Under the pieces are notes generated by a model. It had not been told where the DNA came from. It searched no databases and was given only the letters and a program-made list of their open reading frames with translations. From contig CAYPRJ010000001.1 of the NCBI GenBank assembly GCA_964413095.1, positions 6,975 to 70,974 on the forward strand: 64,000 nt of DNA, written 5' to 3'. Positions 1,931-56,037 of this stretch are shown one piece after another (position 1 is the first letter of the stretch; the number at the start of each line of letters is the position of its first letter). The translations under genes were made by a program, and so were the position numbers. This DNA is from Candidatus Woesearchaeota archaeon. Lineage in GTDB: Archaea > Nanobdellota > Nanobdellia > Pacearchaeales > GW2011-AR1.

Positions 1931-4114
1931 GTGAATATGGCAAAATCTCAGAAGAAGCCAAGTGTTGATGATATTCTTAGAAAGTATGGGGCGAAGATAG
2001 AAGGAAAAATTAAGACTTCTGGTGTAAATCGAAAAGTAAAAACAGATTATAGCAGAGAGTATGTTAAATTTAAAAGTGAGATGGCTCCTGAACTTTCAAA
2101 ATTTGAAAAATGGTGTCATAGTCTTGGAAATATTTTAAAATTAAAAATTTCAGAAAAAGACGAGAAAAAAATTAAAAGACAGATTGAAATTGCACATCTC
2201 GACATAGAGCCATGGCAGGCATTGACTTTAAGTGTTGTTGCTTTTGCAAGTGTTTTTATTTTTGGTTTGTTGGCGTCTGTATTAGTAGCTTTAATTAGAG
2301 GAGGTATTTCTGAATTTCCTTTTTTGTTTTTCTTTTTAATGATTATTGTTTCTTTTTTTTCATTTTATATTGTTAATGGAATTCCTGCAAGGCTTGCTAA
2401 CAAGTGGAGACTTAAAGCTTCTTCACAAATGGTGCCAGCAATTTTGTATATTGTTATTTATATGAGGCACACACCCAATCTTGAAAGAGCAATTTCTTTT
2501 GCTTCTGAGCATTTACAATACCCTCTTGCTTTAGATTTTAAAAGAGTTTTTTATGGTGTTTCTGTTGGAAAATTTTCTACAATTAAAGAAAGTTTAGACA
2601 ACTACTTAGAGACATGGAGAGATTATTCTATTGAATTTATTGAAAGTTTTCATTTGATAGAAAGCAGTTTGTTTGAGCCAAATGAAGAGAGGAGAATTGC
2701 TTCTCTTGAAAAAGCTTTACAGGTTGTACTTGACGGAGTTTATGGTAAGATGCTTAAATTTACCCACAAGGTAAGAAGCCCTTTGACTAATGTTTATATG
2801 CTCGGAGTTGTTTTGCCGACTCTTGGTTTAGCTTTGTTGCCATTGGCTTCTGCAATGCTTGGAGGTTTTTTAAAATGGCATCATGTTCTTATTTTGTTTA
2901 ATCTTATACTTCCTTTTTTGGTTTTTTATCTTACAGATAAAATTATGTTTTTGCGTCCTGGTGGCTATGGTGAAACAGACTTATTAGAAAGAAATCCTCT
3001 GTATTCCAAATATAAAGATAACAGCCATTACACAAAAGCTTTTTTGATTTGTCTTCCTTTTTTGCTTATAGGTTTGTTGCCTTTAATTTTTCAATACACC
3101 CCAATTCCAGAAATTCTTGGTTTGCAAAGTGATTATACTTTTTCTAATTTAGGGTTGGGTCTTTTAGGAGATGAATCTATTTTTGGGTTTATAGAAACTA
3201 CTGAAGGTTTTAAGGGACCTTTTGGTGTTGGAGCTTTAGTTTTTAGTATGTTTATTCCATTAGGAATAGCTTTATTTTTTTCAACAGCTTTTAAGTCTAA
3301 GACAAAAGAATTAATTGTAGAAAGGAAAAAAACAAAGCAATTAGAAAAAGAGTTTAATAATTCTCTTTTTCAGTTAGGAAATAGAATAGGTAATGGGACT
3401 CCTCCTGAACTTGCTTTTGGAAAAGTTGCAGAATCTTCTCGCGGTTTGATAACAGAGAATTTTTTTAACAGAGTAAATTATAATATAAGGCAAATGGGTA
3501 TGAGCGTTGAGAAAGCTATTTTTGATCCAAAAATTGGAGCTATGAGATACTATCCTTCTGCATTAATTCTTACAAGTATGAGAATTCTTATAGAATCAGC
3601 AAAAAAAGGTTTAAAGATTGCTGCTAGGAGTCTTATGAGCATTTCAGAGTATGTAAAAAATATACAAAAAATAACTAGCAGACTTAAAGATTTGCTTGCA
3701 GAAATAGTTTCTGATATGAAAAGTAATATGACTTTTTTAGCTCCTTTACTTTCTGGAGTTGTTGTTGGTTTATCTATTATGATTACTTCTATTTTAGGGA
3801 AATTAAATTTAGCAAGTCTATCAGAAACAGATGTTGGAATTGGAAACTTAGATACAATTTTAAATATTTTTAATTTAGGAAACATGATTCCTCCTTATTA
3901 TTTGCAAATAATAATTGGTGTTTATTTAATTGAAATAGTTTTTATTTTAACAAGAACACTTGTGGCAATTGATTCAGGAGAAGATAAATTAGAAAAAACA
4001 AATAAAATAGGAAAAAATCTTATGAAAGGAATTACTCTTTATTTTATTGTAGCTCTTTTAGCAACTTTAGCTTTGTTTGTTTTAAGTTCTGTGGTTCTTG
4101 GAAATTTAGTTTAA
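1931..4114 (+). CDS. FlaJ/TadC-like polytopic membrane platform protein of type IV pilus machinery
   Basis: 727 aa with many TM helices and large cytoplasmic loops, immediately downstream of the FlaI-like ATPase, which is the canonical gene order. This is a family-level call. Confidence 0.5.
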   Translation: MNMAKSQKKPSVDDILRKYGAKIEGKIKTSGVNRKVKTDYSREYVKFKSEMAPELSKFEKWCHSLGNILKLKISEKDEKKIKRQIEIAHLDIEPWQALTLSVVAFASVFIFGLLASVLVALIRGGISEFPFLFFFLMIIVSFFSFYIVNGIPARLANKWRLKASSQMVPAILYIVIYMRHTPNLERAISFASEHLQYPLALDFKRVFYGVSVGKFSTIKESLDNYLETWRDYSIEFIESFHLIESSLFEPNEERRIASLEKALQVVLDGVYGKMLKFTHKVRSPLTNVYMLGVVLPTLGLALLPLASAMLGGFLKWHHVLILFNLILPFLVFYLTDKIMFLRPGGYGETDLLERNPLYSKYKDNSHYTKAFLICLPFLLIGLLPLIFQYTPIPEILGLQSDYTFSNLGLGLLGDESIFGFIETTEGFKGPFGVGALVFSMFIPLGIALFFSTAFKSKTKELIVERKKTKQLEKEFNNSLFQLGNRIGNGTPPELAFGKVAESSRGLITENFFNRVNYNIRQMGMSVEKAIFDPKIGAMRYYPSALILTSMRILIESAKKGLKIAARSLMSISEYVKNIQKITSRLKDLLAEIVSDMKSNMTFLAPLLSGVVVGLSIMITSILGKLNLASLSETDVGIGNLDTILNIFNLGNMIPPYYLQIIIGVYLIEIVFILTRTLVAIDSGEDKLEKTNKIGKNLMKGITLYFIVALLATLALFVLSSVVLGNLV

Positions 4115-16158: not shown

Positions 16159-19100
16159 ATGGCTACTAAAAAAGATGTTGAAGAAATTAAGAATGCTGTT
16201 TCTGGAGAGGAGAAGGAGGAAAAAGAGCCTCAGCTTACAGATTTGCCGGGAATTGGTCCTGCAGTAGCAACAAAGCTTGAATCTGCAGGAATATATGATT
16301 TAATGTCTTTAGCTGTTATGGGTCCTGCTGAGTTAGGGAATATTGCTGGTGTTAGTGCTGGTGTTGCAAGAAAAGCTATTCAAGCAGCGCGTAGTATGTT
16401 GAAACTAGGTTTTACAGATGGCTTTGAATATGCACAGAGAAGAGCTAATGTTAATTATATTACTACTGGAAGTAAAAATATTGATAATCTTCTTGGGGGA
16501 AAAGGTGTAGAAAGCAGAGCAGTTACAGAAGCATTTGGAGCTTATGGTTCTGGAAAGTGTGTAAGTAAAGACACTGCGGTTAGTTATTTTAATGATACAA
16601 GGATGCATGTTGAGCAGATACAGGAAACTTACAATAAATACAACAAAAATAATGAGTTTAAGTTTGAGGAAGGATTTGCTGTCCCTGTTTCAAGCGTAAA
16701 GGTTCTTGCTTGGAATAAGGGAAAATTAAAAGTTGCAAGAGCTTCACATTTATATAAGGAAAAAGTAAAGCAGTTATTCTTAGTAAAAACAAAAAGAGGC
16801 AGGGTTTTAAAAGTTACAGGAAAACACAGGATTTTAAGTTTTGATAATGGGGTTAAATGGAAAAAAACATCGGATTTAAAAAAAGGAGACTTAATTGCTT
16901 CTCCAAGAAAATTAGATTTGGTTACAGAAAATATTTATGATGAAGATGATGCTTATTTTTTGGGGTTGTTTGTAGCAGAAGGAACTTCAAATCCTTTTTC
17001 AATTTCAACTGGCTCTGAAAAAATAAAGAATTGGGTTTGCAATTACATAAAAAATAAATTTAGATATGTTCCTCTGGTGAGATATAATCAAAGAGGTGAA
17101 AAACCAGTTTATACAATTTTATCAAAAAATAAAACCCGCGGAATAATGGCTGGACTTGATAAATGCAACTCCTCTAATAAGTTTATTCCTGAAGCTATTT
17201 TTCTTTCAGATGAAAATGTTGTTTCTTCATTTTTAGGAGGATATCTTGATGGAGATGGAGAGGTTTCTAAAACAGATGTCTCTGCGACTACAAAAAGCTC
17301 TAAACTGGCTACACAATTAAGTTATTTGTTTTTAAGATTGGGAATTAGCGTAAGTATTAAAGAAAGAAAAAATGAAAAATATGGAAACTATAAGGTAGTT
17401 AGGGTAAGTGGTGAAGATAGAAAAAGGCTAAAAAATGTTTCTTTTAAGATAAAAAGATTTTCTCCTGATATAAGAAATAGTGCTTATGGCTATCCTCGAA
17501 AAATAATTTCTTTTCTTCACCAACTTTATAAAGAGTGTCTTGGAGGTAATAGGGGAAGATTAAGAAAAGAAGTAGGCAAAAGAAGTTTGGACAGAACTGT
17601 TTATTCTAATTTAATAAACCAATATCAGGGAAAGGTGGTAAATACAAAAACATTTAGAAGAATAGAAGATGTTTTTGAAAAACAGAAAGACAGATTTGTT
17701 CATATTTTAAAGAAACTCGAAGATGAAGAATTTAGCCAGGAAATTTTAAATGAAATCTATCCTAGTTTGCCTTTTGCTTTTAGTTCATTGGCAGAAGATA
17801 TGGGCCTGAAGAAAAAAAGCATAAGAAATTATTATCATAGAAATATTCCTAATTCAAAAAAAGAGATTTTAAAGAATCTTATTTTTAATGAATTAAAAAC
17901 CAGGGTTGATATGATTTACCTGGCTTTGGAAATTATTTCAGAAATAAAGATGTTTAATTGGGATGTTGTGGAGAGTGTTGAAGTTATTGATTATGATGAT
18001 TATGTTTATGACTTTGTTGTTCCAGAGGGGCATTCTTTTATTGGGGGCAATCTTCCTACAATGATGCATAATACTCAGCTTGGTTTAACTCTTGCTGTTA
18101 ATGTTCAATTGCCTGTTGAAAAAGGTGGTGCAAATGGAAAGTGTGTTTTTATTGATACAGAAGGAACTTTCAGACCAGCGCGTATAAAACAAATTGCTGA
18201 AATTTTAGGAGCCAATCAAGAAAAAGTTTTGAAAAATATTTTAGTTGCAAGAGCTTTTAATTCAGATCATCAAATTTTGCTTTTAGAAAAAATCTCTGAA
18301 ATGGTTAAACAAGGAGAACCAATTAAATTATTAATTGTTGATTCTTTAACTGCACATTTTAGAGCAGAGTTTTCAGGAAGAGGACAATTAGCAGACAGGC
18401 AGCAAAAATTGAATAAATATCTTCATAATTTAATGAGGCTTGCTGAACAGCACAATCTTGCAGTTTATGTTACAAATCAAGTAATGGCAAATCCTGCGCA
18501 GATGTTTGGAGATCCTACAACTGCAATTGGGGGGAATATTGTGGGACACGCTTGTTTAACAGGAGATAGTTTAATTCAATTAGCTGATGGAAGTATAAGG
18601 GAAATTAAAAATATTAGTAAGAATAATGTTATTTCTGGAAATTTAAATAAATTAAGCTTTGAACAAGCAGGCTCTGAAAAAACTTTTATCAATCCAGACA
18701 TCAAAAAAATTTACAATATTAAAACAACAAATCAAATAAAGTGTTCTCCTCTCCATAGATTTTTTTCAATAGAAAATTTTTCTATTATTGAAAAAGAAGC
18801 CAAAGATTTGAGAGAGGGGGATTTTATTGCTCATGCAGGAAGAATTGAGATAGGGGGAGAAGAGCAGGAGTTGCCGACTCTAAATTTAAGAAGAATTGGA
18901 AAAATATCTAAAGATGAGGGAAAATTAATTTCAGAGGAGCTTGGAAAAGGAAATATTTCAAGAAATGAAATATGCAAGAAAGTGGGGATAACTTCAAGGC
19001 AGTTTAGAAGGGTTTTAAATCAGTCATATCCTACAAATATTAAAGTTTTTGATGCTTTAAAAAAGCATTTTGCAAATAATCTTCAGTTACAGGTTGTTCC

Positions 19101-20166
19101 TTTTTATACTTATAAACATCAGAATATTATGATTCCTGAAACTTTAAATCCTCGGTTAGCACAAATTTGTGGCTATTTTATTGGTGATGGAAATTTTGAG
19201 GCAAGAGGTTTAAGATTTAGAGATGAAAGGGAGGGGGTTTTACAATTTTACAATAAACTCTTTTCAGAAACATTTAGGATTCAGGGAAAGATTTCTAAAA
19301 TGAAAAATAAAAATTGTTTTACTTTAAATATTAATTCAAAAGAAATTGCTGATTTTTTTAGACTTATTCTTCCGGATATTTTTGATTATGTTGCTAAATC
19401 CAAGAAAGATGTGGTAGCAGGTTTTATCAAGGGCTTTATTGATGCAGAAGGGCATGTCAATAAAAAAAGACCAAAAATAACAATTGCTCAAAAAGAAAAA
19501 CTAATTTTAAGATATTTGCAATTATTTTTGCTGAGATTTGGAATCAGAAGTTTTTTGAGATTTGATGGTGGTAAGAAAAAAATTTCAAATCTTTCAATAA
19601 GAGATCGGAGCGTTAAGGATTATTTGCAGATTGGTTTTAGTGCTGAAAGTAAACAGAAGCAATTATTAAAATGGATAAAGCATGTTAATAAGACATATCA
19701 AAAAGAAATGATGCCTATTCAAAGAAACGAGATTTTAGAACTTCTTAAAAGTGTTGGGTTAAAACCCTCTTTAATCATTAAGTCTAGACCCTCTTCTTAT
19801 AAATGGATAAATGGGGAGGAGTTAAAAAAAGCACATAATGCTCTCATGAATAGTAGAGTAAATGATAGACAAATAAAACAGAAAATTGAATTTATATTTA
19901 AACTATTAAATTCAGATATAAGATTTGAAAAAATTAGAAAGATATCAGTTTCTGAAAATAAAGGAAAAGAATTATTTTATGATTTTTCTGTTCCTAAAAA
20001 GGAGAATTATATGGCTAATGGTTTTATTGTTCATAACTCCACATACAGAATGTATTTAAGAAGAGGAAAAAAAGATTCACGAGTTGCAAAGTTAATTGAC
20101 TCTCCGAATTTGCCAGATAATGAAACAGTTTTTTATCTTACAGAGTCTGGTGTTAGAGATGAATAA
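16159..20166 (+). CDS. radA: DNA repair and recombination protein RadA containing two inteins
   Basis: The N-terminal HhH domain, Walker A GAYGSGK|..|TQLGLTLAV, Walker B LLIVDSL and C-terminal GGNIVGHA|..|STYRMYLRRGKK...LIDSPNLPD are contiguous RadA sequence once two intein blocks are removed. Confidence 0.9.
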   Translation: MATKKDVEEIKNAVSGEEKEEKEPQLTDLPGIGPAVATKLESAGIYDLMSLAVMGPAELGNIAGVSAGVARKAIQAARSMLKLGFTDGFEYAQRRANVNYITTGSKNIDNLLGGKGVESRAVTEAFGAYGSGKCVSKDTAVSYFNDTRMHVEQIQETYNKYNKNNEFKFEEGFAVPVSSVKVLAWNKGKLKVARASHLYKEKVKQLFLVKTKRGRVLKVTGKHRILSFDNGVKWKKTSDLKKGDLIASPRKLDLVTENIYDEDDAYFLGLFVAEGTSNPFSISTGSEKIKNWVCNYIKNKFRYVPLVRYNQRGEKPVYTILSKNKTRGIMAGLDKCNSSNKFIPEAIFLSDENVVSSFLGGYLDGDGEVSKTDVSATTKSSKLATQLSYLFLRLGISVSIKERKNEKYGNYKVVRVSGEDRKRLKNVSFKIKRFSPDIRNSAYGYPRKIISFLHQLYKECLGGNRGRLRKEVGKRSLDRTVYSNLINQYQGKVVNTKTFRRIEDVFEKQKDRFVHILKKLEDEEFSQEILNEIYPSLPFAFSSLAEDMGLKKKSIRNYYHRNIPNSKKEILKNLIFNELKTRVDMIYLALEIISEIKMFNWDVVESVEVIDYDDYVYDFVVPEGHSFIGGNLPTMMHNTQLGLTLAVNVQLPVEKGGANGKCVFIDTEGTFRPARIKQIAEILGANQEKVLKNILVARAFNSDHQILLLEKISEMVKQGEPIKLLIVDSLTAHFRAEFSGRGQLADRQQKLNKYLHNLMRLAEQHNLAVYVTNQVMANPAQMFGDPTTAIGGNIVGHACLTGDSLIQLADGSIREIKNISKNNVISGNLNKLSFEQAGSEKTFINPDIKKIYNIKTTNQIKCSPLHRFFSIENFSIIEKEAKDLREGDFIAHAGRIEIGGEEQELPTLNLRRIGKISKDEGKLISEELGKGNISRNEICKKVGITSRQFRRVLNQSYPTNIKVFDALKKHFANNLQLQVVPFYTYKHQNIMIPETLNPRLAQICGYFIGDGNFEARGLRFRDEREGVLQFYNKLFSETFRIQGKISKMKNKNCFTLNINSKEIADFFRLILPDIFDYVAKSKKDVVAGFIKGFIDAEGHVNKKRPKITIAQKEKLILRYLQLFLLRFGIRSFLRFDGGKKKISNLSIRDRSVKDYLQIGFSAESKQKQLLKWIKHVNKTYQKEMMPIQRNEILELLKSVGLKPSLIIKSRPSSYKWINGEELKKAHNALMNSRVNDRQIKQKIEFIFKLLNSDIRFEKIRKISVSENKGKELFYDFSVPKKENYMANGFIVHNSTYRMYLRRGKKDSRVAKLIDSPNLPDNETVFYLTESGVRDE
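16558..18072 (+). mobile_element. RadA intein 1 (505 aa) inserted in the P-loop, with LAGLIDADG homing endonuclease domain
   Basis: Starts with Cys right after GSGK, ends ...MMHN before TQL. LAGLIDADG blocks are LGLFVAEGTS and LGGYLDGDGEV. Confidence 0.85.
18553..20037 (+). mobile_element. RadA intein 2 (495 aa) with LAGLIDADG domain
   Basis: Starts CLTGDSLIQLADG, ends GFIVHN|S. LAGLIDADG blocks are ICGYFIGDGNFE and VAGFIKGFIDAEGHV. Confidence 0.85.
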
Positions 20167-28813: not shown

Positions 28814-29074
28814 TTGTTATATATTCCAAAAACTTATAAATTAAAAAATCAGAACTCCTATCAATTTTGTTTTACTAATTATAATAAACATTTACTTAGA
28901 GGTGTTAGAAATTCTCTATTGAGTATTGGTATTAATTGTTCAAAAATTAGTAGTAGGGATATTTATATTACTAAAAAATCTGAATTAAGAAAGTTTTTAA
29001 AACTAATAGGGTTCAATAATGATAGGCATCTTAAAAAAATTAAGATGTGGAAACTTGATAGCCCCATAGTCTAG
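28814..29074 (+). pseudogene. truncated paralog (C-terminal half only) of the LAGLIDADG protein at 40711-41334, abutting a tRNA
   Basis: LLRGVRNSLLSIGINCSKISS aligns to LIKGVSKLCDELNLNCSKIKI of the 207-aa LAGLIDADG protein. No LAGLIDADG motif is retained. The stop lies inside the 5' end of the downstream tRNA. Confidence 0.45.
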
Positions 29075-29202
29075 CGGTCAAATTCTTTTGTGCTGTAAAA
29101 AGTACATAGAAGACTATAGATACAGCCCTTTGGACAGGAGATTTAATAACTAAGTCAAATGATGGAAAGGCTGTGACCTCGGTTCGAATCCGAGTGGGGC
29201 TA
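29060..29202 (+). tRNA. tRNA-Gln(TTG) candidate with two introns (D-loop ~36 nt, anticodon loop ~34 nt)
   Basis: Acceptor AGCCCCA/TGGGGCT, T-arm CTCGG-TTCGAAT-CCGAG, anticodon stem CAGCC/GGCTG with loop CTTTGG..A. Folded by hand, so the anticodon is tentative. Confidence 0.5.
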
Positions 29203-31882: not shown

Positions 31883-34800
31883 TTATAGCCGAAATTTCCC
31901 TCCTTTCATAAACTTCTTAGCCATTTTCATAAGTTGCTTTTGTGACATGGCTTTTTCTGGGTTCATACCAGACATGCCTTCTTTAATCATTTCATTAAGC
32001 ATTTTGTATTGTTTTAATAAAGAACGAACATCACTTCCATGAACTCCTGCTCCTTTTGCTATTCTGGCAATGCGGGAAGTTTCTTTTTCCAAGAGCTCTG
32101 GATTTTCTTTTTCTTCTGGTGTCATTGATTTAACTATATGCTCCCATTTTGAAATTTTAGCTTCTTGATTTTCTAAGAGATTTTCAGGAACCTTTTTTTC
32201 TATGTTCGCAAAACCAGGAACCATGTTTTTTATTTTATCTAAACCTCCCATAGAGCCCATTGATTTAACTTGTTCTATAACATCTTCAATAGAAAGTTTT
32301 CCTTCCTGAAGCCGCTTTTGCATAGCTTCTTGTTTTTTTCCTCCTGTTGCTGATTTTATTTTTTCAATCAAGGACTGCAAATCACCCATACCAAGAAGTC
32401 TTGAGAGAAAATTTTCTGGATTAAATTCTTCTATGTCATTTGCTTTTTCTCCTGTTCCTATAAAATAAACAGGAGCCTTCACTTCATTACAAGCTGTTAA
32501 AGCTCCTCCTGCCTTGGCAGTTGAGTCCATTCTCGTTATTATAACTCCAGAGATATTTACTGCTTCTTTAAATTGAGAAGCTTGTTGGTGTGCTGCCTGC
32601 CCAATATCTGCAGGCATAACTAGGATGTTTTCAGTTGGTTTTATTGTTTTTTCTAGTTGTTTTATCTCTTTAATTAGCTCTTTGTCTAAAGTGTGTCTAC
32701 CTGCTGTATCAATAAGAATTAAATCATAATCTTTCAGTTCTCTTTCAAACTTTTTCCAGATTTTTATTGGATTTTTTTCTTTGGCATCTATGAAGCAATT
32801 TAAATTATATTTTTCTGCAAGTTGTTTTAATTGTTCTGGAGCTGCTGGTCTATGTGTGTCCAATCCTACAAGAGCAACTTTGTGCCCTCTTTTAGCGTAA
32901 TAATTTCCAATTTTTGCAATTGTTGTTGTATTGTGCACAACTATTCCATCAGCCAAAAAACTGTGATTATCTTCCACTGTTAAATCATAAACAAATTTTT
33001 CATCATTTTTAATATGATTAATCTCTTTTACTGGAGTCCAACAAATATTAGAAGATGAAAGAAGTTCAAAAGATTTTAACAGAGGCTCTAATTTACTTTT
33101 ATGTATAATTTGTAAATATTGCATTCCTCTTTCAGTTAGAGAATTTTTAATTCCTTTTTCTACAAATCCTTCTTGTTTCAAATGTTTTAAAATACCATTA
33201 ACTGCCCTATATGAATATTTATTTGATATGGATATATTATTTGAGATATCATTTAAGATACCCAAAAAAACTCCTTCTTTTTTCATTCTGTAATATAATA
33301 GGAGTTTTTTCAATTGTTCTTTTGAGATCAATCCTTTTTTTTCATATATTCCATAGCTATAAACCGCATTTTCTTGTATTTCTCCTATTGAGAAACCAAG
33401 AGCAAACCTTAATGCTTTTAATGAATTTCCTAAAGGAATCATGTCTTGATTCCCTGCTCCTTGTATCTTTCCAATCTGATTATACTTTTCTGTTATTTTT
33501 TGTTTGTAATTTATCAAATATCCTATTTTTTCAGAATAAATCTCAGCATATTTTCCTTTAATATATAATGTCCAATAAGAAATATTATTAATAATCTTTT
33601 TAGATATAGATGATAATATTCCAAGTCTTCTAAGGAGTAAGGACATTTGTTGTAGATTTATGTAGCTTTCTGATGATACTTCTATATACCTCTTATTTTT
33701 GCTTGGTGAAGAATCACAATCAAAATAAGCTTTTATGAATGACCTAATTACTTCATTATTTGAAAGCATTATCTGCTTTGGGATTTCAAGATTTCTTCCT
33801 TTCTTTCCTACGTTAAATCCAAATTTCTGTAATATTTTAACTAAAGTAACTGAATTTAATCTAATGTAGTAAAGATTTTTACTTCTCTTATCTTTTGTTA
33901 AAGTAGGAGTTAAATTAAAAATAATTTTGGATAGCTCAATAATTCTATTTATTATTTCAATATCCTCGTTTGATATATGTATACTTCTTTCGCTAATATA
34001 ACCATCACCTATGACATATCCTATAAATTCTGACAATTCTTGAGTTAGATGAAGGGGAAAAGATATTATTTTACTACTCTTTACATGTTTTAATCTTAAG
34101 AAATTATATTTTTCTTTTTCTATAAATTCTATTGGTATTCTTCCTTTGTTAATAATTGAGGTAAGGTAACTATAATTTTTTTTATATTTTAAATTACTGT
34201 ATCCCTCCTTTATTGAATTGTATTTTTTTAAGATATTTTGTTTAGCTTCTTTGGGGGTTAAATAAGCTTCTAAATTGAGATTTTTTATATAATCGAATAA
34301 ATTTATTGTTTTCCCTTCTATTTCTATTTTATTGGGAATAGATATGAAATCCTCTTTTGTTAACTCATCAGCCCTTATTTGAGTGATTTGTCCATTTTTT
34401 AGGACAAAAAAGGGATGCTCTGGTGTTACTTTAATTGAAGAGTCATTTCCATTACCAATTTTGACTTCAATCAATTCATCTTTTTTTAATTTCCATAAAT
34501 AAGTCGCTTTTTTATTCTCAATTTTTAAAGTTTTAGGATTAAATGATGGGATCTGTAATCTTTTATCTTGTATGTTGATTATTTTTCCATCCTCTATATT
34601 TTCTTCTAAATCTTTATATCTTTCATATAATTTTTTTGCTTTGATTATCTCTCCATTTCCCAGCTGGATTTTACTTTCTGAATGAACACATTTTCCTGCT
34701 CCATATAAACCAAGGAGTATAATTCTGTTTTGTTCTTTGCTTTGTAAAGCTAATTGTTTATGCTCTCCAAGAATTTCAACTAACTCATCATGTAATAGTT

Positions 34801-35023
34801 TTATTATATGTTCTTTTTTGTCTATTTCTTTTATTTTTTCATCTAATGCAGTTTTTTTTATTTTATCACTTAAATCCTTAACTAAAGACACATTTACATC
34901 TGCTTCAATCATAGCTCTTTGCAAATCTCTGACAACAGAATCAACAAGATTTTTATCTAAGAATATAGCATTAGCTATTTTGTTTGTTGCTTTTCTTAAC
35001 ACTTCTCCTAATTTTTCTAGCAT
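31883..35023 (-). CDS. srp54: signal recognition particle protein SRP54 containing one intein
   Basis: N domain, G domain with GLYGAGK|..|TTTIAKIG, DTAGRH, and an M domain with a Met-rich C-terminus. 1046 aa because of the intein. Confidence 0.9.
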   Translation of the reverse strand: MLEKLGEVLRKATNKIANAIFLDKNLVDSVVRDLQRAMIEADVNVSLVKDLSDKIKKTALDEKIKEIDKKEHIIKLLHDELVEILGEHKQLALQSKEQNRIILLGLYGAGKCVHSESKIQLGNGEIIKAKKLYERYKDLEENIEDGKIINIQDKRLQIPSFNPKTLKIENKKATYLWKLKKDELIEVKIGNGNDSSIKVTPEHPFFVLKNGQITQIRADELTKEDFISIPNKIEIEGKTINLFDYIKNLNLEAYLTPKEAKQNILKKYNSIKEGYSNLKYKKNYSYLTSIINKGRIPIEFIEKEKYNFLRLKHVKSSKIISFPLHLTQELSEFIGYVIGDGYISERSIHISNEDIEIINRIIELSKIIFNLTPTLTKDKRSKNLYYIRLNSVTLVKILQKFGFNVGKKGRNLEIPKQIMLSNNEVIRSFIKAYFDCDSSPSKNKRYIEVSSESYINLQQMSLLLRRLGILSSISKKIINNISYWTLYIKGKYAEIYSEKIGYLINYKQKITEKYNQIGKIQGAGNQDMIPLGNSLKALRFALGFSIGEIQENAVYSYGIYEKKGLISKEQLKKLLLYYRMKKEGVFLGILNDISNNISISNKYSYRAVNGILKHLKQEGFVEKGIKNSLTERGMQYLQIIHKSKLEPLLKSFELLSSSNICWTPVKEINHIKNDEKFVYDLTVEDNHSFLADGIVVHNTTTIAKIGNYYAKRGHKVALVGLDTHRPAAPEQLKQLAEKYNLNCFIDAKEKNPIKIWKKFERELKDYDLILIDTAGRHTLDKELIKEIKQLEKTIKPTENILVMPADIGQAAHQQASQFKEAVNISGVIITRMDSTAKAGGALTACNEVKAPVYFIGTGEKANDIEEFNPENFLSRLLGMGDLQSLIEKIKSATGGKKQEAMQKRLQEGKLSIEDVIEQVKSMGSMGGLDKIKNMVPGFANIEKKVPENLLENQEAKISKWEHIVKSMTPEEKENPELLEKETSRIARIAKGAGVHGSDVRSLLKQYKMLNEMIKEGMSGMNPEKAMSQKQLMKMAKKFMKGGKFRL
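32930..34690 (-). mobile_element. SRP54 intein (587 aa) in the P-loop, with LAGLIDADG domain
   Basis: Begins CVHSESKIQLGNGE after GAGK and ends DGIVVHN|TTT. LAGLIDADG blocks are FIGYVIGDGYIS and the surrounding DOD blocks. Confidence 0.85.
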
Positions 35024-40584: not shown

Positions 40585-40720
40585 AGCCTGTGGAGGGATT
40601 CTAACCCCCGGCCTACTGCTGGCTTTCTGAACATGTAGTTGGCTCAGATACAAGGCAGTTGAGCATATCTTAACCTTTTAGAGTCACAGATATTCCGCTC
40701 TAACACTGAGCTACACAGGC
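40585..40720 (-). tRNA. tRNA-Thr(TGT) with two introns (~36 nt after the D-arm, ~28 nt at 37/38)
   Basis: Reverse complement: acceptor GCCTGTG/CACAGGC, D-arm GCTC..GAGC, anticodon stem ACTGC/GCAGT with loop CTTGTA|intron|A, T-arm GGGGG-TTAGAAT-CCCTC. Confidence 0.6.
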
Positions 40721-41334
40721 TTAATATTAGACAGAGTTATATTCTTTAAAAAGTTTTGTCCCTTCAATCTTAATGGAAGTTTATTATCAAATCTTATATA
40801 ATAAAAAGGAATTTTATTTGTATAATTTATTTTTATTTTGGAACAATTTAGATTAAGTTCGTCGCATAATTTACTTACCCCTTTTATTAAATTAAATCTT
40901 TTCTGTTTAAGCTGAATTCTTTTATTATACACAGAACCATCTGTATCAACTAATCCTGCTAGATAATTTAGTGCACAAGTTTTATTTGTTTTAACTATCT
41001 TTGGGATTTTCCCAAATTTCTTCTTTCCAATTTCACTTTCTAATTTTACAAAATAAAAAAATAACCCTGCGTTTTCTATCTTTAAATAATATGAATTTTG
41101 TTTTCTATTATCTTTGTTAATCTTTCCATTAACTGAAAAAAGTTTGTTTAACACGTTTCTAATGTAATCAATATAGATTTCACTCCCTGAATAAACTCTG
41201 AGAAGATAATGATAACCTCCTTTTTTTCTTTTCGTTATACTTAAAGAACCATCACCTTCTATAACTCCTAAAAGATATGCAATATCTTTATTTATTGTGG
41301 GTATGTTTATTTCACTCCTTCTTGTTTTTATCAT
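40711..41334 (-). CDS. free-standing LAGLIDADG homing endonuclease-like protein
   Basis: Two LAGLIDADG motifs, YLLGVIEGDGSL and YLAGLVDTDGSV. 207 aa. The stop codon lies inside the 5' acceptor stem of tRNA-Thr. Confidence 0.8.
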   Translation of the reverse strand: MIKTRRSEINIPTINKDIAYLLGVIEGDGSLSITKRKKGGYHYLLRVYSGSEIYIDYIRNVLNKLFSVNGKINKDNRKQNSYYLKIENAGLFFYFVKLESEIGKKKFGKIPKIVKTNKTCALNYLAGLVDTDGSVYNKRIQLKQKRFNLIKGVSKLCDELNLNCSKIKINYTNKIPFYYIRFDNKLPLRLKGQNFLKNITLSNIKPV

Positions 41335-41474
41335 ATCTCTTTCTACTTTGTGATATATTCCTTTATTGGATAATTCTTTATTCCTTTATTGGATAATTCT
41401 TTAGATATCTTTTTAATCATCTTTTAGAGCGTCTGAACTGCACTTAATAAGAAAGATTTAGTTTAAAAGATTTC

Positions 41475-42610: not shown

Positions 42611-42719
42611 TGGTCCTGCGCGGAATTGAACCGCGGTTTTATCCATTTTGTGAACAGCTTACAGATTTAAGTGAACTGAACTCGTCAAGGACATGTCTTA
42701 GCCACTGGACTACAGGACC
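42611..42719 (-). tRNA. tRNA-Val(GAC) with ~37-nt anticodon-loop intron
   Basis: Reverse complement: acceptor GGTCCTG/CAGGACC, D-arm GTC-AGTGGCTAA-GAC, anticodon stem TGTCC/GGATA with loop TTGACG, T-arm CGCGG-TTCAATT-CCGCG. Confidence 0.6.
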
Positions 42720-51720: not shown

Positions 51721-51858
51721 TGCGGGAGAAAGGATTCGAACCTTCGCAGGCACTAAGCCAACAGGTTTCTTCGAGTTAGTTTGCGTTATTTGTGAGACAT
51801 AATCTCTCGCAATCTTCTCGCCTAAGCCTGTCCCGTTTGACCACTCCGGCACTCCCGC
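51721..51858 (-). tRNA. tRNA-Leu(TAG), class II with long variable arm, 54-nt intron at 37/38
   Basis: Reverse complement: acceptor GCGGGAG/CTCCCGC, anticodon stem ACAGG/CCTGT with loop CTTAGG|intron|A, variable arm TGGCTTAGTGCCTGC, T-arm GAAGG-TTCGAAT-CCTTT. Confidence 0.7.
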
Positions 51859-55738: not shown

Positions 55739-55913
55739 TTTTTTGAATTGGTTAATAGAAAGATTTTAAATATTCTATTTTTCTTTGATTAATAGTGAGC
55801 CCCTGTAGCTCACGTAAGAAACCAAGGTTCCTTGACGTTCAACCTCCTTTGTGGCACTGTTGGGTGATTTCAAGTTGCCTTCGGTGAAATCGCGGACGCT
55901 ACAGGAGACAAGC

Positions 55914-56037
55914 CCCTGTAGCTCAGCCTGGATAGAGCGACTGCCTTCTATGCTATTGGCAGTGTCGTACATTGTTGCGATTATTTGTCTTCAGCGGATA
56001 GCAGTAGGCCGCAGGTTCGAATCCTGTCGGGGGCATT
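55914..56037 (+). tRNA. tRNA-Arg(TCT) with 49-nt intron at 37/38
   Basis: Acceptor GCCCCTG/CGGGGGC, D-arm GCTC-AGCCTGGATA-GAGC, anticodon stem ACTGC/GCAGT with loop CTTCTA|intron|A, T-arm GCAGG-TTCGAAT-CCTGT. Confidence 0.65.

What the first reader, a model, noticed from the sequence alone, without database searches (positions are those of the whole stretch)
28814..29202. LAGLIDADG endonuclease genes fused head-to-tail to intron-containing tRNA genes at two loci
At 40585-41334 a 207-aa double-motif LAGLIDADG ORF ends with its stop codon (TAG) inside the acceptor stem and positions 8-10 of tRNA-Thr(TGT). At 28814-29202 an 86-aa ORF is homologous to the C-terminal third of that protein (LIKGVSKL..LNLNCSKIKI versus LLRGVRNSLLSIGINCSKISS) and likewise terminates (TAG) inside the 5' end of the two-intron tRNA-Gln candidate. 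Both pairs are co-oriented. Established knowledge: free-standing LAGLIDADG enzymes are normally intron- or intein-borne. Inference: this could be a homing-endonuclease family that uses tRNA genes as a landing site, or a domesticated enzyme co-transcribed with the tRNAs. The 86-aa copy looks like a decaying pseudogene.
Basis: partly seen in the sequence, partly recalled or inferred. Interest (0 to 1): 0.7.

Follow-up and report, generated by a model that had tools for sequence, protein, structure and literature searches.

The report
Endonuclease genes parked beside tRNA genes
Two selfish DNA-cutting-enzyme genes in this tiny (DPANN) archaeon each sit directly in front of one specific tRNA gene, and related genomes show they come and go at exactly that spot and carry the tRNA gene along, a habit not described before for this enzyme class; both copies in this window are damaged.

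Summary
A double-motif LAGLIDADG ORF (40711-41334, -) ends with TAG at nt 8-10 of a two-intron tRNA-Thr(UGU). An 86-aa ORF (28814-29074, +) ends with TAG at nt 13-15 of a two-intron tRNA-Gln(UUG).

They belong to two distinct families, not close paralogues. Every relative whose DNA I could read abuts the same tRNA: Thr(UGU) in over 20 DPANN loci, Gln(UUG) in six.

The genes look like free-standing homing endonucleases, not domesticated proteins:
- Both catalytic Asp are invariant (61/61) and the fold is I-DmoI-like.
- Of 59 syntenic S3Ae/tRNA-Thr loci, only 3 carry the gene and 1 a remnant.
- Two contigs with 98% identical flanks carry endonucleases only 50% identical and different tRNA-Thr alleles.

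The gene sits behind the tRNA's old promoter, and its 3' end supplies a new TATA box.

The 86-aa ORF is a deletion remnant of a roughly 230-aa gene. The 207-aa ORF has also lost its true start to a 23-bp duplication.

Distant relatives overlap tRNA genes in either orientation. The cleavage target and activity are untested. I found no published description.

The parts
40711..41334 (-). 207-aa double-motif LAGLIDADG ORF of the tRNA-Thr-linked family. Its last 10 nt, including the stop TAG, are tRNA nt 1-10.
   Evidence: Pfam LAGLIDADG_3 at E=5e-13. 72 homologues at 41-74% identity. D28 and D132 are invariant in 61/61. The AF2 model has pLDDT 92 and resembles I-DmoI and intein endonucleases.
41335..41420 (-). 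Ancestral 5' end of the same gene (ATG at 41418-41420), now out of frame. It reads MIKKISKELSNKGIKNYPIKEYITK*.
   Evidence: Translation. Deleting one 23-nt repeat unit restores a 228-aa ORF whose N-terminus matches the orthologues.
41356..41403 (.). Perfect 23-bp tandem duplication (2.1 copies) that frameshifts the endonuclease gene after codon 14.
   Evidence: Tandem Repeats Finder, 100% matches.
41423..41441 (-). Conserved 5'-UTR motif GCAGTTCAGACGCTCTAAA just before the ancestral ATG. Function unknown.
   Evidence: Single match in the window, 0.01 expected. The same motif precedes the ATG in 13 of 19 endonuclease-bearing loci.
41461..41469 (-). TATA-like box (CTTTTAAAC on the - strand) just after the S3Ae stop. 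It occupies the position of the tRNA-Thr promoter in endonuclease-free relatives and is inferred to drive the endonuclease gene here.
   Evidence: Sequence. Comparison with endonuclease-free loci such as L089, which have the same GAAATCTTTTAAAC after the S3Ae stop.
40746..40753 (-). Second TATA-like box (TTTTTAAA, TTTTAA starting at -31 from the tRNA) inside codons NFLK of the ORF. Inferred tRNA-Thr promoter.
   Evidence: 21 of 23 endonuclease-free and 10 of 18 endonuclease-bearing loci have such a hexamer starting at -30 to -32.
40585..40720 (-). tRNA-Thr(UGU) gene with two introns (40660-40695 and 40620-40647; boundaries uncertain by 1-2 nt).
   Evidence: Rfam 40.9 bits. The in-silico spliced 72-mer is called Thr(tgt) by ARAGORN.
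28814..29074 (+). 86-aa remnant of a tRNA-Gln-linked LAGLIDADG gene. Only the C-terminal part of domain 2 survives and both catalytic motifs are gone (LYIPKTYKL where relatives have LYDTDGSVYKL). The last 15 nt are tRNA nt 1-15.
   Evidence: Orthologues of 59-135 aa and full-length relatives of 214-235 aa. Window 28834-29134 aligns to L134 2935-3234 at 83%, with about 900 nt missing upstream.
29030..29041 (+). A/T-rich TATA-like stretch CTTAAAAAAATT at -30 to -19 of tRNA-Gln, inside codons HLKKIK. Inferred tRNA-Gln promoter and the likely reason this end of the dead gene is retained.
   Evidence: Sequence. Synonymous divergence is lower in the last 36 codons (dS 0.46-0.50) than in the first 45 (0.88-1.17).
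29060..29202 (+). tRNA-Gln(UUG) gene with two 34-nt introns (29082-29115 in the D-loop, 29135-29168 after the anticodon loop).
   Evidence: The spliced sequence is called Gln(ttg) by ARAGORN. Pre-tRNA fold z=-5.0. Orthologous tRNAs are found in L010, L012 and L134.

Best explanation
These are free-standing LAGLIDADG homing-endonuclease genes. They lie in no intron and no intein, and their niche is the immediate flank of one particular tRNA gene.

In the ancestral arrangement a TATA box lies about 30 nt upstream of the tRNA. In endonuclease-bearing alleles the gene lies between that promoter and the tRNA. The gene sits behind the old promoter. Its own 3' end carries a replacement TATA box at the correct distance and, in some lineages, the first 7-18 nt of the tRNA.

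I infer that the enzyme cuts endonuclease-free alleles in or next to the tRNA gene. Recombinational repair from an endonuclease-bearing genome would then copy the gene together with the neighbouring tRNA allele. This is 'intronless homing' with co-conversion. Once fixed, the gene decays from its 5' side, while its 3' end survives because it now holds the tRNA promoter and start.

In this window both copies are at the decay stage. The Thr-linked gene carries a fresh frameshift, and the Gln-linked gene is an 86-aa stump.

Shown: the position, sporadic distribution, catalytic residues, fold, cassette swap and decay series. Inferred: nuclease activity, the target site, and which promoter drives what.
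For: 1. Position. All 9 loci recovered through exact homologues, and 12 further loci in DPANN genomes, have a co-oriented tRNA-Thr(UGU) from 18 nt of overlap to 37 nt downstream. This covers assemblies labelled Pacearchaeota, Woesearchaeota, Nanoarchaeia and Aenigmatarchaeota, down to 43% identity, and holds even where the upstream gene differs (L007).
2. Second family. It has 42 members, with tRNA-Gln(UUG) overlapping the ORF end in six loci with three different upstream contexts. The C-termini spell the tRNA-Gln 5' end in several reading frames.
3. Active-site signature. D28 and D132 are invariant in 61/61, and the beta-strand motifs (KRKxGGYHY, QLKQK, NYTxxPFYYIRFDN) are strongly conserved. 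The AF2 model has pLDDT 92, and its best solved matches are intein endonuclease domains and I-DmoI.
4. Sporadic presence. In an S3Ae-anchored sample of 80 metagenome loci, 59 show a tRNA-Thr 5' end downstream. Only 3 have the full gene and 1 a remnant. The rest run from the S3Ae stop through a TATA box straight to the tRNA.
5. Horizontal replacement. L049 and L056 are 98% identical over 1473 bp upstream and 90% over 609 bp downstream. Their endonucleases are only 50% identical and their tRNA-Thr genes match at 53/72. L049 and L015 have S3Ae regions only 75% identical, yet their endonucleases are 66.5% identical and their tRNAs match at 65/72. So the tRNA allele follows the endonuclease allele.
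6. Decay. Remnants that keep only the 3' end still abut the tRNA: L027, L028 and L100 for Thr, and a 135/109/103/86/62/59-aa series for Gln. The window's own gene has a frameshift.
7. Promoter layout. A TATA hexamer starts at -30 to -32 in 21 of 23 endonuclease-free loci and in 10 of 18 endonuclease-bearing loci.
8. L134 keeps an orphan copy of tRNA-Gln nt 1-22 (20/24 matches, 0/1000 shuffles), 22 nt after a TATA box and upstream of the endonuclease ORF.
9. Breadth. Distant relatives read into tRNA genes in sense or antisense, as confirmed on DNA in L026 and L137.
Against: - No cleavage data exist, and I could not infer the target.
- The 5' 25 nt of endonuclease-linked and endonuclease-free tRNA-Thr alleles can be identical (L004 versus L039). 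The spacers also look alike. So it is unclear how an endonuclease-bearing allele escapes self-cleavage.
- The endonuclease is as conserved as, or more conserved than, the neighbouring ribosomal protein S3Ae (50-72% versus 29-58% identity to the window). This also fits a host-useful function.
- No close relatives occur in viral contigs that could act as vectors.
- The swap evidence rests on one contig pair plus one comparison.
- The region between S3Ae and the convergent downstream gene is generally variable, so ordinary recombination could contribute.
- The idea that the endonuclease 5' UTR is a degenerate tRNA-Thr fragment failed its test.
Confidence: 0.65

Rival explanations
1. A domesticated LAGLIDADG protein, analogous to WhiA or to organellar maturases. 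It would serve the host by binding the tRNA gene or its transcript for regulation, processing or intron handling, and would be co-transcribed with the tRNA.
For: Strong sequence conservation and uniform length. The protein is more conserved than the adjacent S3Ae. The link to one tRNA is strict and co-oriented. The ORF overlaps the tRNA 5' end in several lineages.
Against: The gene is absent from 55 of 59 syntenic loci of close relatives, which still have tRNA-Thr with or without introns. Remnants and frameshifts are common, including both copies here. Both catalytic Asp are invariant, unlike typical domesticated relatives (the last point is my own knowledge). The tRNA keeps its own TATA box. 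Divergent alleles are swapped between near-identical genomes.
Confidence: 0.1
2. Former intron passenger. The gene originally sat inside a bulge-helix-bulge intron of the tRNA, as I-DmoI-type enzymes sit in rRNA introns. A later duplication of promoter plus 5' exon inside that intron freed it. On this view today's short intron and the orphan 5' exon are leftovers. This rival concerns origin and is compatible with the best explanation.
For: In L134 an orphan copy of tRNA-Gln exon 1 plus the first 2 intron nt lies upstream of the endonuclease ORF. It breaks at exactly the position of the D-loop intron in the functional copy. Several endonuclease-free tRNA-Thr loci have duplicated 5' pieces of 13-25 nt followed by 50-110-nt inserts that carry a new TATA box (L098, L101, L111, L073). 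The closest solved relatives include archaeal intron-encoded enzymes.
Against: No locus was found with the ORF actually inside a tRNA intron. Thr-family endonuclease-bearing loci show no significant orphan fragment. L003, L015, L016, L020, L049 and L056 have intron-less tRNAs. The small inserts have no detectable endonuclease remnant.
Confidence: 0.15
3. Inert junk. The ORFs are dead relics, and their adjacency to tRNAs only reflects the fact that DNA next to a tRNA promoter cannot be deleted.
For: Both window copies are damaged. Remnants retain only the promoter-bearing 3' end, and synonymous divergence is lower there.
Against: This explains why remnants are retained. It does not explain why intact genes with invariant catalytic residues are always at this site. 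It also does not explain why two families each pick one tRNA, nor the allele swap.
Confidence: 0.07

Closest known systems
I-DmoI and related archaeal intron-encoded monomeric LAGLIDADG endonucleases (I-Tsp061I and others)
   Same: A single chain with two LAGLIDADG motifs and one catalytic acidic residue per motif. Similar size, about 200 aa. The profile matches I-DmoI at E about 1e-9, and Foldseek gives E about 1e-10 with TM 0.6-0.7.
   Different: Those enzymes are encoded inside rRNA introns and home into the intron-less rRNA allele (my knowledge). Here the ORF lies outside any intron, next to a tRNA gene. Rfam finds no group I intron in the window. Sequence identity is only about 22%.
Intein-borne LAGLIDADG domains (PI-PfuI, Tli VMA intein)
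   Same: These are the best sequence and structure matches (1dq3 at E=1.7e-12; 7qsu at Foldseek 1e-11). The same window carries such inteins in RadA and SRP54.
   Different: There is no Hint or splicing domain and no host protein; the ORF is free-standing.
Free-standing homing endonucleases of T-even phages (Seg and Mob proteins; SegB lies in the T4 tRNA gene cluster). This comparison rests on my own knowledge, not on a tool result.
   Same: A stand-alone endonuclease gene is wedged between conserved genes. It is inherited preferentially together with flanking markers ('intronless homing' with co-conversion). Here the neighbouring tRNA allele travels with the endonuclease.
   Different: Those enzymes are GIY-YIG or HNH proteins in phage genomes. 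Here the enzyme is a LAGLIDADG protein in cellular DPANN archaeal chromosomes, strictly tied to one tRNA, with promoter capture and ORF-tRNA overlap. No close relatives occur in viral contigs.
Free-standing endonuclease genes in fungal and algal organelle genomes that insert at gene ends and carry a duplicated piece of the host gene (general knowledge; reviewed in PMC8393795, which I did not read in detail)
   Same: The endonuclease gene overlaps the end of a host gene and brings a replacement copy of that end. The orphan tRNA-Gln 5' fragment in L134 is an example.
   Different: In organelles the host gene encodes a protein and the duplicated part is its 3' end. Here it is the 5' end and promoter of a tRNA gene in an archaeal chromosome.
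Group I introns with LAGLIDADG ORFs in DPANN archaea (Nawrocki et al. 2018, PMC6125680)
   Same: The same host groups (Pacearchaeota, Woesearchaeota) and the same Pfam families.
   Different: All 39 of those introns lie in rRNA genes. The genes here are next to tRNA genes and not inside a ribozyme.

Membership tests
LAGLIDADG endonuclease, monomeric two-motif type (207-aa ORF) | Two LAGLIDADG motifs, each ending in a catalytic Asp or Glu | tested here: met
   LLGVIEGDGS (D28) and LAGLVDTDGS (D132). Both Asp are invariant in 61/61 homologues. Pfam LAGLIDADG_3 at 5e-13.
LAGLIDADG endonuclease, monomeric two-motif type (207-aa ORF) | Pseudo-dimeric alpha-beta-beta-alpha-beta-beta-alpha fold with a beta-sheet DNA saddle | tested here: met
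   The AF2 model has pLDDT 92 and pTM 0.88. Foldseek against the PDB returns intein endonuclease domains and I-DmoI at probability 1.00.
LAGLIDADG endonuclease, monomeric two-motif type (207-aa ORF) | Site-specific double-strand DNA cleavage | not testable with these tools
   Needs purified protein and substrate.
LAGLIDADG endonuclease, monomeric two-motif type (207-aa ORF) | Intact full-length reading frame | tested here: not met
   A 23-bp tandem duplication frameshifts the ancestral first 21 codons in this window. The orthologues are intact.
Homing (mobile) endonuclease gene | Presence/absence polymorphism at one homologous site | tested here: met
   3 full copies and 1 remnant among 59 S3Ae/tRNA-Thr loci.
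Homing (mobile) endonuclease gene | Phylogeny discordant with flanking host genes (horizontal spread) | tested here: met
   L049 and L056 have flanks 98% identical, endonucleases 50% identical and tRNAs matching at 53/72. This is one pair only.
Homing (mobile) endonuclease gene | The enzyme cleaves the endonuclease-free allele at or near its own insertion site | not testable with these tools
   The target could not be inferred. No consistent difference separates endonuclease-linked from endonuclease-free tRNA 5' halves.
Intron- or intein-encoded endonuclease | The ORF lies within a self-splicing intron, a bulge-helix-bulge intron or an intein | tested here: not met
   The ORF lies 5' of a complete tRNA. 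The window has no group I or II intron hit and the protein has no Hint domain.
LAGLIDADG endonuclease (86-aa ORF) | LAGLIDADG motif with a catalytic residue | tested here: not met
   The window has LYIPKTYKL where orthologues have LYDTDGSVYKL. Pfam gives 21.7 bits, below the 22.5 cut-off, and matches only profile positions 23-82. The ORF is a remnant of a family member, not a functional member.
Domesticated LAGLIDADG protein (WhiA-like or maturase-like) | Vertical inheritance and general presence in the clade; catalytic residues often lost | tested here: not met
   The gene is sporadic and its catalytic Asp are invariant. The WhiA LAGLIDADG Pfam match is only 21.1 bits, below its cut-off.

The most novel reading that the evidence does not exclude
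Endonuclease-plus-tRNA cassettes may act as gene drives for tRNA alleles in DPANN and other archaea. On this reading each endonuclease variant is linked to a tRNA allele it cannot cut and replaces sensitive alleles. The unusual abundance and scattered positions of introns, and the partial 5' duplications in these tRNA genes, would then be scars of or defences against these enzymes. Alternatively the free-standing genes could be escaped passengers of tRNA introns. Either way, a long-standing proposal would become directly testable: that disrupted archaeal tRNA genes evolved as protection against mobile elements.
Probability: 0.15. Interest if true: 0.85.

Novelty: new variant of a known kind. 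Interest (0 to 1): 0.62.

Why it matters
Homing endonucleases are usually treated as passengers of introns and inteins. Free-standing ones are best known from phages and organelles.

Here two families live in cellular archaeal chromosomes, each beside one specific tRNA gene. They appear to capture its promoter, supply a new one, overlap its first nucleotides and take the tRNA allele with them.

If the enzymes cut tRNA genes, this is a new route by which tRNA alleles, and perhaps their introns, spread horizontally in genome-reduced archaea.

There are practical consequences as well:
- Gene callers will keep reporting short 'hypothetical proteins' that are in fact dead endonuclease ends serving as tRNA promoters.
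- C-terminal peptides such as ..SPIV, ..ESNPR or ..GFEP flag ORFs that run into tRNA genes.
- The families offer new compact meganuclease scaffolds, probably with conserved targets.

Tried and rejected
1. The endonuclease 5' UTR as a degenerate orphan tRNA-Thr 5' fragment. Local alignment against each cognate tRNA with 2000 shuffles gave p>0.06 in all 18 loci tested, and the window's extended upstream region also showed nothing. I rejected this for the Thr family. An orphan is significant only in L134 of the Gln family.
2. The small inserts flanked by duplicated tRNA-Thr 5' ends (L098, L101, L111, L073 and others) as internally deleted endonuclease cassettes. An HMM search of six-frame translations found no remnant in them, so this is unresolved.
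3. Introns as a correlate of endonuclease presence. The difference is not significant (10/16 versus 13/37, Fisher p=0.08).
4. A diagnostic difference between endonuclease-linked and endonuclease-free tRNA-Thr 5' halves or spacers, which could explain immunity or reveal the target. None was seen.
5. dN/dS of the 86-aa remnant, to decide whether it is still a protein. The value of 0.25-0.28 at dS about 0.7-0.8 is uninformative, because most of the divergence may predate the deletion.
6. Viral carriers. IMG/VR holds only distant LAGLIDADG genes, none next to a tRNA.
7. Bacterial distant relatives (L029-L034). None has a tRNA nearby, so the association is not a general LAGLIDADG_3 property.
8. Literature. 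Five searches found no description of tRNA-flanking LAGLIDADG genes in archaea. The library is not exhaustive.
9. Group I intron context. Rfam finds none in the window.
Full report
**What is in the window**

The window is AT-rich archaeal DNA. It carries ribosomal protein genes (L44e, S3Ae), inteins in RadA and SRP54, and several intron-containing tRNAs. The nearest public relatives are annotated Candidatus Pacearchaeota or Nanoarchaeota, which are DPANN archaea.

*Locus B.*
- ORF 40711-41334 (-) encodes 207 aa and matches Pfam LAGLIDADG_3 at E=5e-13 in two stretches.
- Rfam finds a tRNA at 40585-40720 (-), 40.9 bits.
- Removing introns of 36 and 28 nt gives a 72-nt tRNA-Thr(UGU) that ARAGORN accepts.
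- The stop codon TAG is tRNA nt 8-10.

*Locus A.*
- ORF 28814-29074 (+) encodes 86 aa.
- It runs 15 nt into a sequence that standard tools do not call correctly as it stands (Rfam 14 bits; ARAGORN with introns allowed gives a spurious tRNA-Ile(aat)).
- After removal of two 34-nt introns this sequence is a clean tRNA-Gln(UUG).
- The precursor folds far better than shuffles (z=-5.0).

**Are the two ORFs related?**

Only distantly.
- Direct comparison is marginal: E=8.5 by tblastn in the window, 0.012 as a single pair, and Pfam 21.7 bits against a 22.5 cut-off.
- The 86-aa ORF has orthologues at 50-74% identity of 135, 109, 103, 62 and 59 aa.
- The 135-aa orthologue (P0073) keeps the second motif LRGLYDTDGSVY. 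It matches LAGLIDADG_3 at 2.9e-11 and the 207-aa protein at 6e-6.
- A search seeded with P0073 found 42 proteins, including full-length two-motif members of 214-235 aa.

These are therefore two separate families within LAGLIDADG_3.

**The Thr family**

*Protein.*
- The 207-aa protein has 72 homologues at 41-74% identity, nearly all of 207-242 aa.
- Both catalytic Asp (D28, D132) are invariant in 61 of 61 full-length members. The beta-strand segments that contact DNA in this fold are strongly conserved.
- An AlphaFold model has pLDDT 92. It matches intein endonuclease domains and I-DmoI (Foldseek E about 1e-10 to 1e-11). The family profile matches PI-PfuI (1.7e-12) and I-DmoI (about 1e-9) by sequence.

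*Context.*
- In nine loci recovered by exact protein look-up, the gene is followed by a co-oriented tRNA-Thr(UGU).
- The same holds for twelve more loci from GTDB genomes labelled Pacearchaeota, Woesearchaeota, Nanoarchaeia and Aenigmatarchaeota, down to 43% identity.
- The ORF end lies 10-37 nt before the tRNA, or overlaps it by 7-18 nt, in six loci including the window.
- The upstream neighbour is usually S3Ae. In L007 it is not, so the tie is to the tRNA.
- The linked tRNA has 0, 1 or 2 introns at various positions.

**Is it a resident host gene or a sporadic insertion?**

I anchored a metagenome scan on the neighbouring S3Ae protein, which is blind to the endonuclease. It returned 80 loci with S3Ae 56-67% identical to the window's.
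- In 59 of them a tRNA-Thr 5' end lies downstream.
- An HMM search of all six frames found the full gene in only three (L049, L056, L110) and a 29-residue remnant in one (L100).
- The common arrangement is the S3Ae stop, a TATA-like box (cTTTTAAA) and, about 25 nt later, tRNA-Thr(UGU).
- The TATA hexamer starts at -30 to -32 in 21 of 23 simple endonuclease-free loci.

In endonuclease-bearing loci a TATA box with a similar spacer precedes the gene. In 13 of 19 loci it is followed by a conserved 5'-UTR motif, (TT)ACAGTTCAGACGCTCTAAAA, directly before the ATG. A second TATA hexamer lies at -30/-31 from the tRNA, inside or at the end of the ORF. In several loci the stop codon TAA is part of that TTTTAA. 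I read this as promoter capture by the endonuclease gene and promoter replacement for the tRNA. This is an inference, with no transcript data behind it.

**Evidence for horizontal movement**
- Contigs L049 and L056 are 98% identical over 1473 bp up to and including the UTR motif and the first bases of the ORF. They are 90% identical over 609 bp further downstream.
- Between those flanks, the endonuclease genes are only 68.5% identical at the DNA level by a sensitive search and 50% at the protein level. The tRNA-Thr genes match at 53 of 72 positions.
- L049 and L015 have S3Ae regions only 75% identical. Their endonucleases are 66.5% identical and their tRNAs match at 65 of 72.
- L089, an endonuclease-free relative (S3Ae region 89% identical), carries a third tRNA-Thr allele.

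So the tRNA allele follows the endonuclease allele rather than the chromosome. That is what co-conversion during homing would produce. The evidence is limited to these few contigs, and the whole interval up to the next convergent gene is variable.

**Decay**

L027 keeps only residues 122-189, L028 residues 169-203 and L100 residues 172-200. All three still abut tRNA-Thr.

The window's own Thr-linked gene is also damaged:
- The conserved UTR motif lies at 41423-41441 (-) and is followed by an ATG at 41418-41420.
- That frame stops after 25 codons, because of a perfect 23-bp tandem duplication at 41356-41403.
- Deleting one unit restores a 228-aa ORF whose N-terminus (MIKKISKELSNKGIYHKVERD-MIKTRRS...) matches the orthologues.
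- The 207-aa ORF therefore starts at an internal Met.
- It may still be translated, or it may be a very recent pseudogene. An assembly artefact is not excluded.

**The Gln family and the 86-aa ORF**

Family members end in ...SPxV...IAPSSSGQIL or ...QPRGVVD. All of these are translations of the tRNA-Gln 5' end (AGCCCCnUAGUCUAG or AGCCCCGUGGUGUAG) in different frames.

DNA confirmed an overlapping tRNA-Gln(UUG) in six loci: L010, L011, L012, L134, L135 and L136, with three different upstream contexts.

L134 is syntenic with the window (ParA-like gene, small reverse ORF, endonuclease, tRNA-Gln, RIO kinase, SRP54 with intein). It carries a 224-aa gene where the window has 86 aa. Window 28834-29134 aligns to L134 2935-3234 at 83%, and about 900 nt are missing from the window. 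The window copy also lost the remaining motif (LYIPKTYKL where relatives have LYDTDGSVYKL). It is a deletion remnant.

Its last 36 codons have lower synonymous divergence than the first 45 (dS 0.46-0.50 versus 0.88-1.17). They contain an A/T-rich box, CTTAAAAAAATT, at -30 to -19 of the tRNA. I infer that the stump is retained because it is now the tRNA-Gln promoter and start. dN/dS of 0.25-0.28 cannot decide whether a peptide is still made.

L134 also has an orphan copy of tRNA-Gln nt 1-22 plus two intron nucleotides:
- It matches at 20/24 positions, a score that 0 of 1000 shuffles reach.
- It lies 22 nt after a TATA box and upstream of the endonuclease ORF.
- It breaks at the position of the D-loop intron in the functional copy.

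**A wider pattern**

A profile search of 1.84 billion representative proteins gave 21 clusters at E<=1e-30 and 618 at E<=1e-10. Among 111 hits of 150-370 aa:
- 19 end in peptides that are antisense translations of a tRNA T-arm and acceptor end (GFEP, ESNPR, NRTPDL, RIRTCDL).
- 8 end in sense translations of a tRNA 5' end.
- The antisense motifs occur 19 times in 3330 tail residues and 7 times in 26004 body residues (p=3e-13). The motif list was drawn up after seeing the tails.

DNA confirmed the convergent arrangement in two loci. L137 overlaps an intron-containing tRNA. In a Hadesarchaea genome (L026), a 263-aa ORF ends ...EWARRESNPRSLPCKGSVC and overlaps a reverse-strand tRNA by 58 nt.

One Thr-family representative (P0119) appears to read on to the anticodon loop, from its C-terminal peptide ...RSSAGRARDL. 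I read its last two codons and stop as GAC TTG TAA; its DNA was not examined.

Distant bacterial and viral LAGLIDADG loci have no tRNA nearby.

**Interpretation**

The best-supported reading is a free-standing homing endonuclease whose niche is the flank of a specific tRNA gene. It would spread by break-induced recombination that also converts the neighbouring tRNA, followed by decay.
- Not shown: nuclease activity, the target, and how the carrier allele avoids being cut. The 5' halves of endonuclease-linked and endonuclease-free tRNA-Thr genes can be identical.
- The domestication alternative fits the high conservation but not the sporadic distribution, the decay or the swap.
- An origin from an ORF-bearing tRNA intron is possible. 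The L134 orphan exon and the duplicated 5' pieces in L098, L101, L111 and L073 point that way. No such architecture was found, however, and the Thr-family UTR is not a recognisable tRNA fragment.

**Novelty**

The enzyme class, its fold and the concept of free-standing homing endonucleases are known. I found no description of any of the following in five full-text searches:
- the strict pairing of two archaeal LAGLIDADG families with single tRNA genes;
- the promoter and 5'-end overlap architecture;
- the co-travelling tRNA allele;
- the wider sense and antisense overlap with tRNA genes.

The LAGLIDADG-bearing group I introns reported from DPANN archaea are all in rRNA genes. I class this as a new variant of a known kind.

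Noticed in passing
window 41356-41403: A perfect 23-bp tandem duplication frameshifts the ancestral start of the Thr-linked endonuclease gene. Removing one unit restores a 228-aa ORF. It could be a very recent inactivation or an assembly artefact.
   Followed up: yes
L098:~648-790, L101:~575-665, L111, L073/L074, L059, L079, L089 (endonuclease-free S3Ae/tRNA-Thr loci): A copy of the first 5-25 nt of tRNA-Thr sits at the normal start position after the TATA box. The copies are perfect 14-mers in L098 and L101. A 10-150-nt insert with its own TATA-like box follows, and then the complete tRNA. No endonuclease remnant is detectable in the inserts, and their origin is unexplained.
   Followed up: partly
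L004, L021, L028 (between endonuclease ORF end and tRNA-Thr): A degenerate duplicate of the tRNA 5' end (GCCTGTA..TTAG..) lies directly upstream of the real tRNA start. It may be a repair scar.
   Followed up: no
L134:~2198-2221 and 2259-2500: An orphan tRNA-Gln 5' fragment lies upstream of the endonuclease ORF. The ORF also has an N-terminal extension with weak helix-turn-helix similarity (HTH_19 E=1e-4, below the cut-off, scored after replacing the in-frame TAG with Gln). Representatives of about 300 aa (P0252, P0254) suggest the full ancestral protein carries this extension.
   Followed up: partly
window 41423-41441 (-) and 13 of 19 endonuclease-bearing loci: A strongly conserved 5'-UTR motif, ACAGTTCAGACGCTCTAAAA, directly precedes the endonuclease ATG. 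It is better conserved than the protein, and the left recombination boundary of the L049/L056 swap lies there. Its function is unknown.
   Followed up: partly
window 16159-20166 (+) and 31883-35023 (-): RadA (Rad51 family) carries two inteins and SRP54 carries one. Each intein has a LAGLIDADG_3 endonuclease domain, so the window holds five LAGLIDADG-derived sequences in 64 kb.
   Followed up: partly
window 42611-42719 (-), 51721-51858 (-), 55912-56035 (+): Three more intron-containing tRNA genes found by Rfam. None has a LAGLIDADG ORF next to it. Their anticodons were not determined, because ARAGORN's calls for multi-intron tRNAs are unreliable.
   Followed up: no
L001:~3870-3960 and L057: The 3' end of the S3Ae gene (..CTTGCACTTTGCGAGATTAGAGTTCTTGA..) is partially duplicated in the spacer before the endonuclease gene or tRNA. 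This is another sign that the spacer is a rearrangement hot spot.
   Followed up: no
L053, L105, L116 (tRNA-Thr anticodon loop): The anticodon loop reads CCTGTAA, so position 33 would be C instead of the near-universal U.
   Followed up: no
L007:560-1537 (-): A reverse-transcriptase (RVT_1) gene lies about 2.5 kb from the endonuclease/tRNA-Thr pair in this locus. L007 also has an intein in SufB.
   Followed up: no
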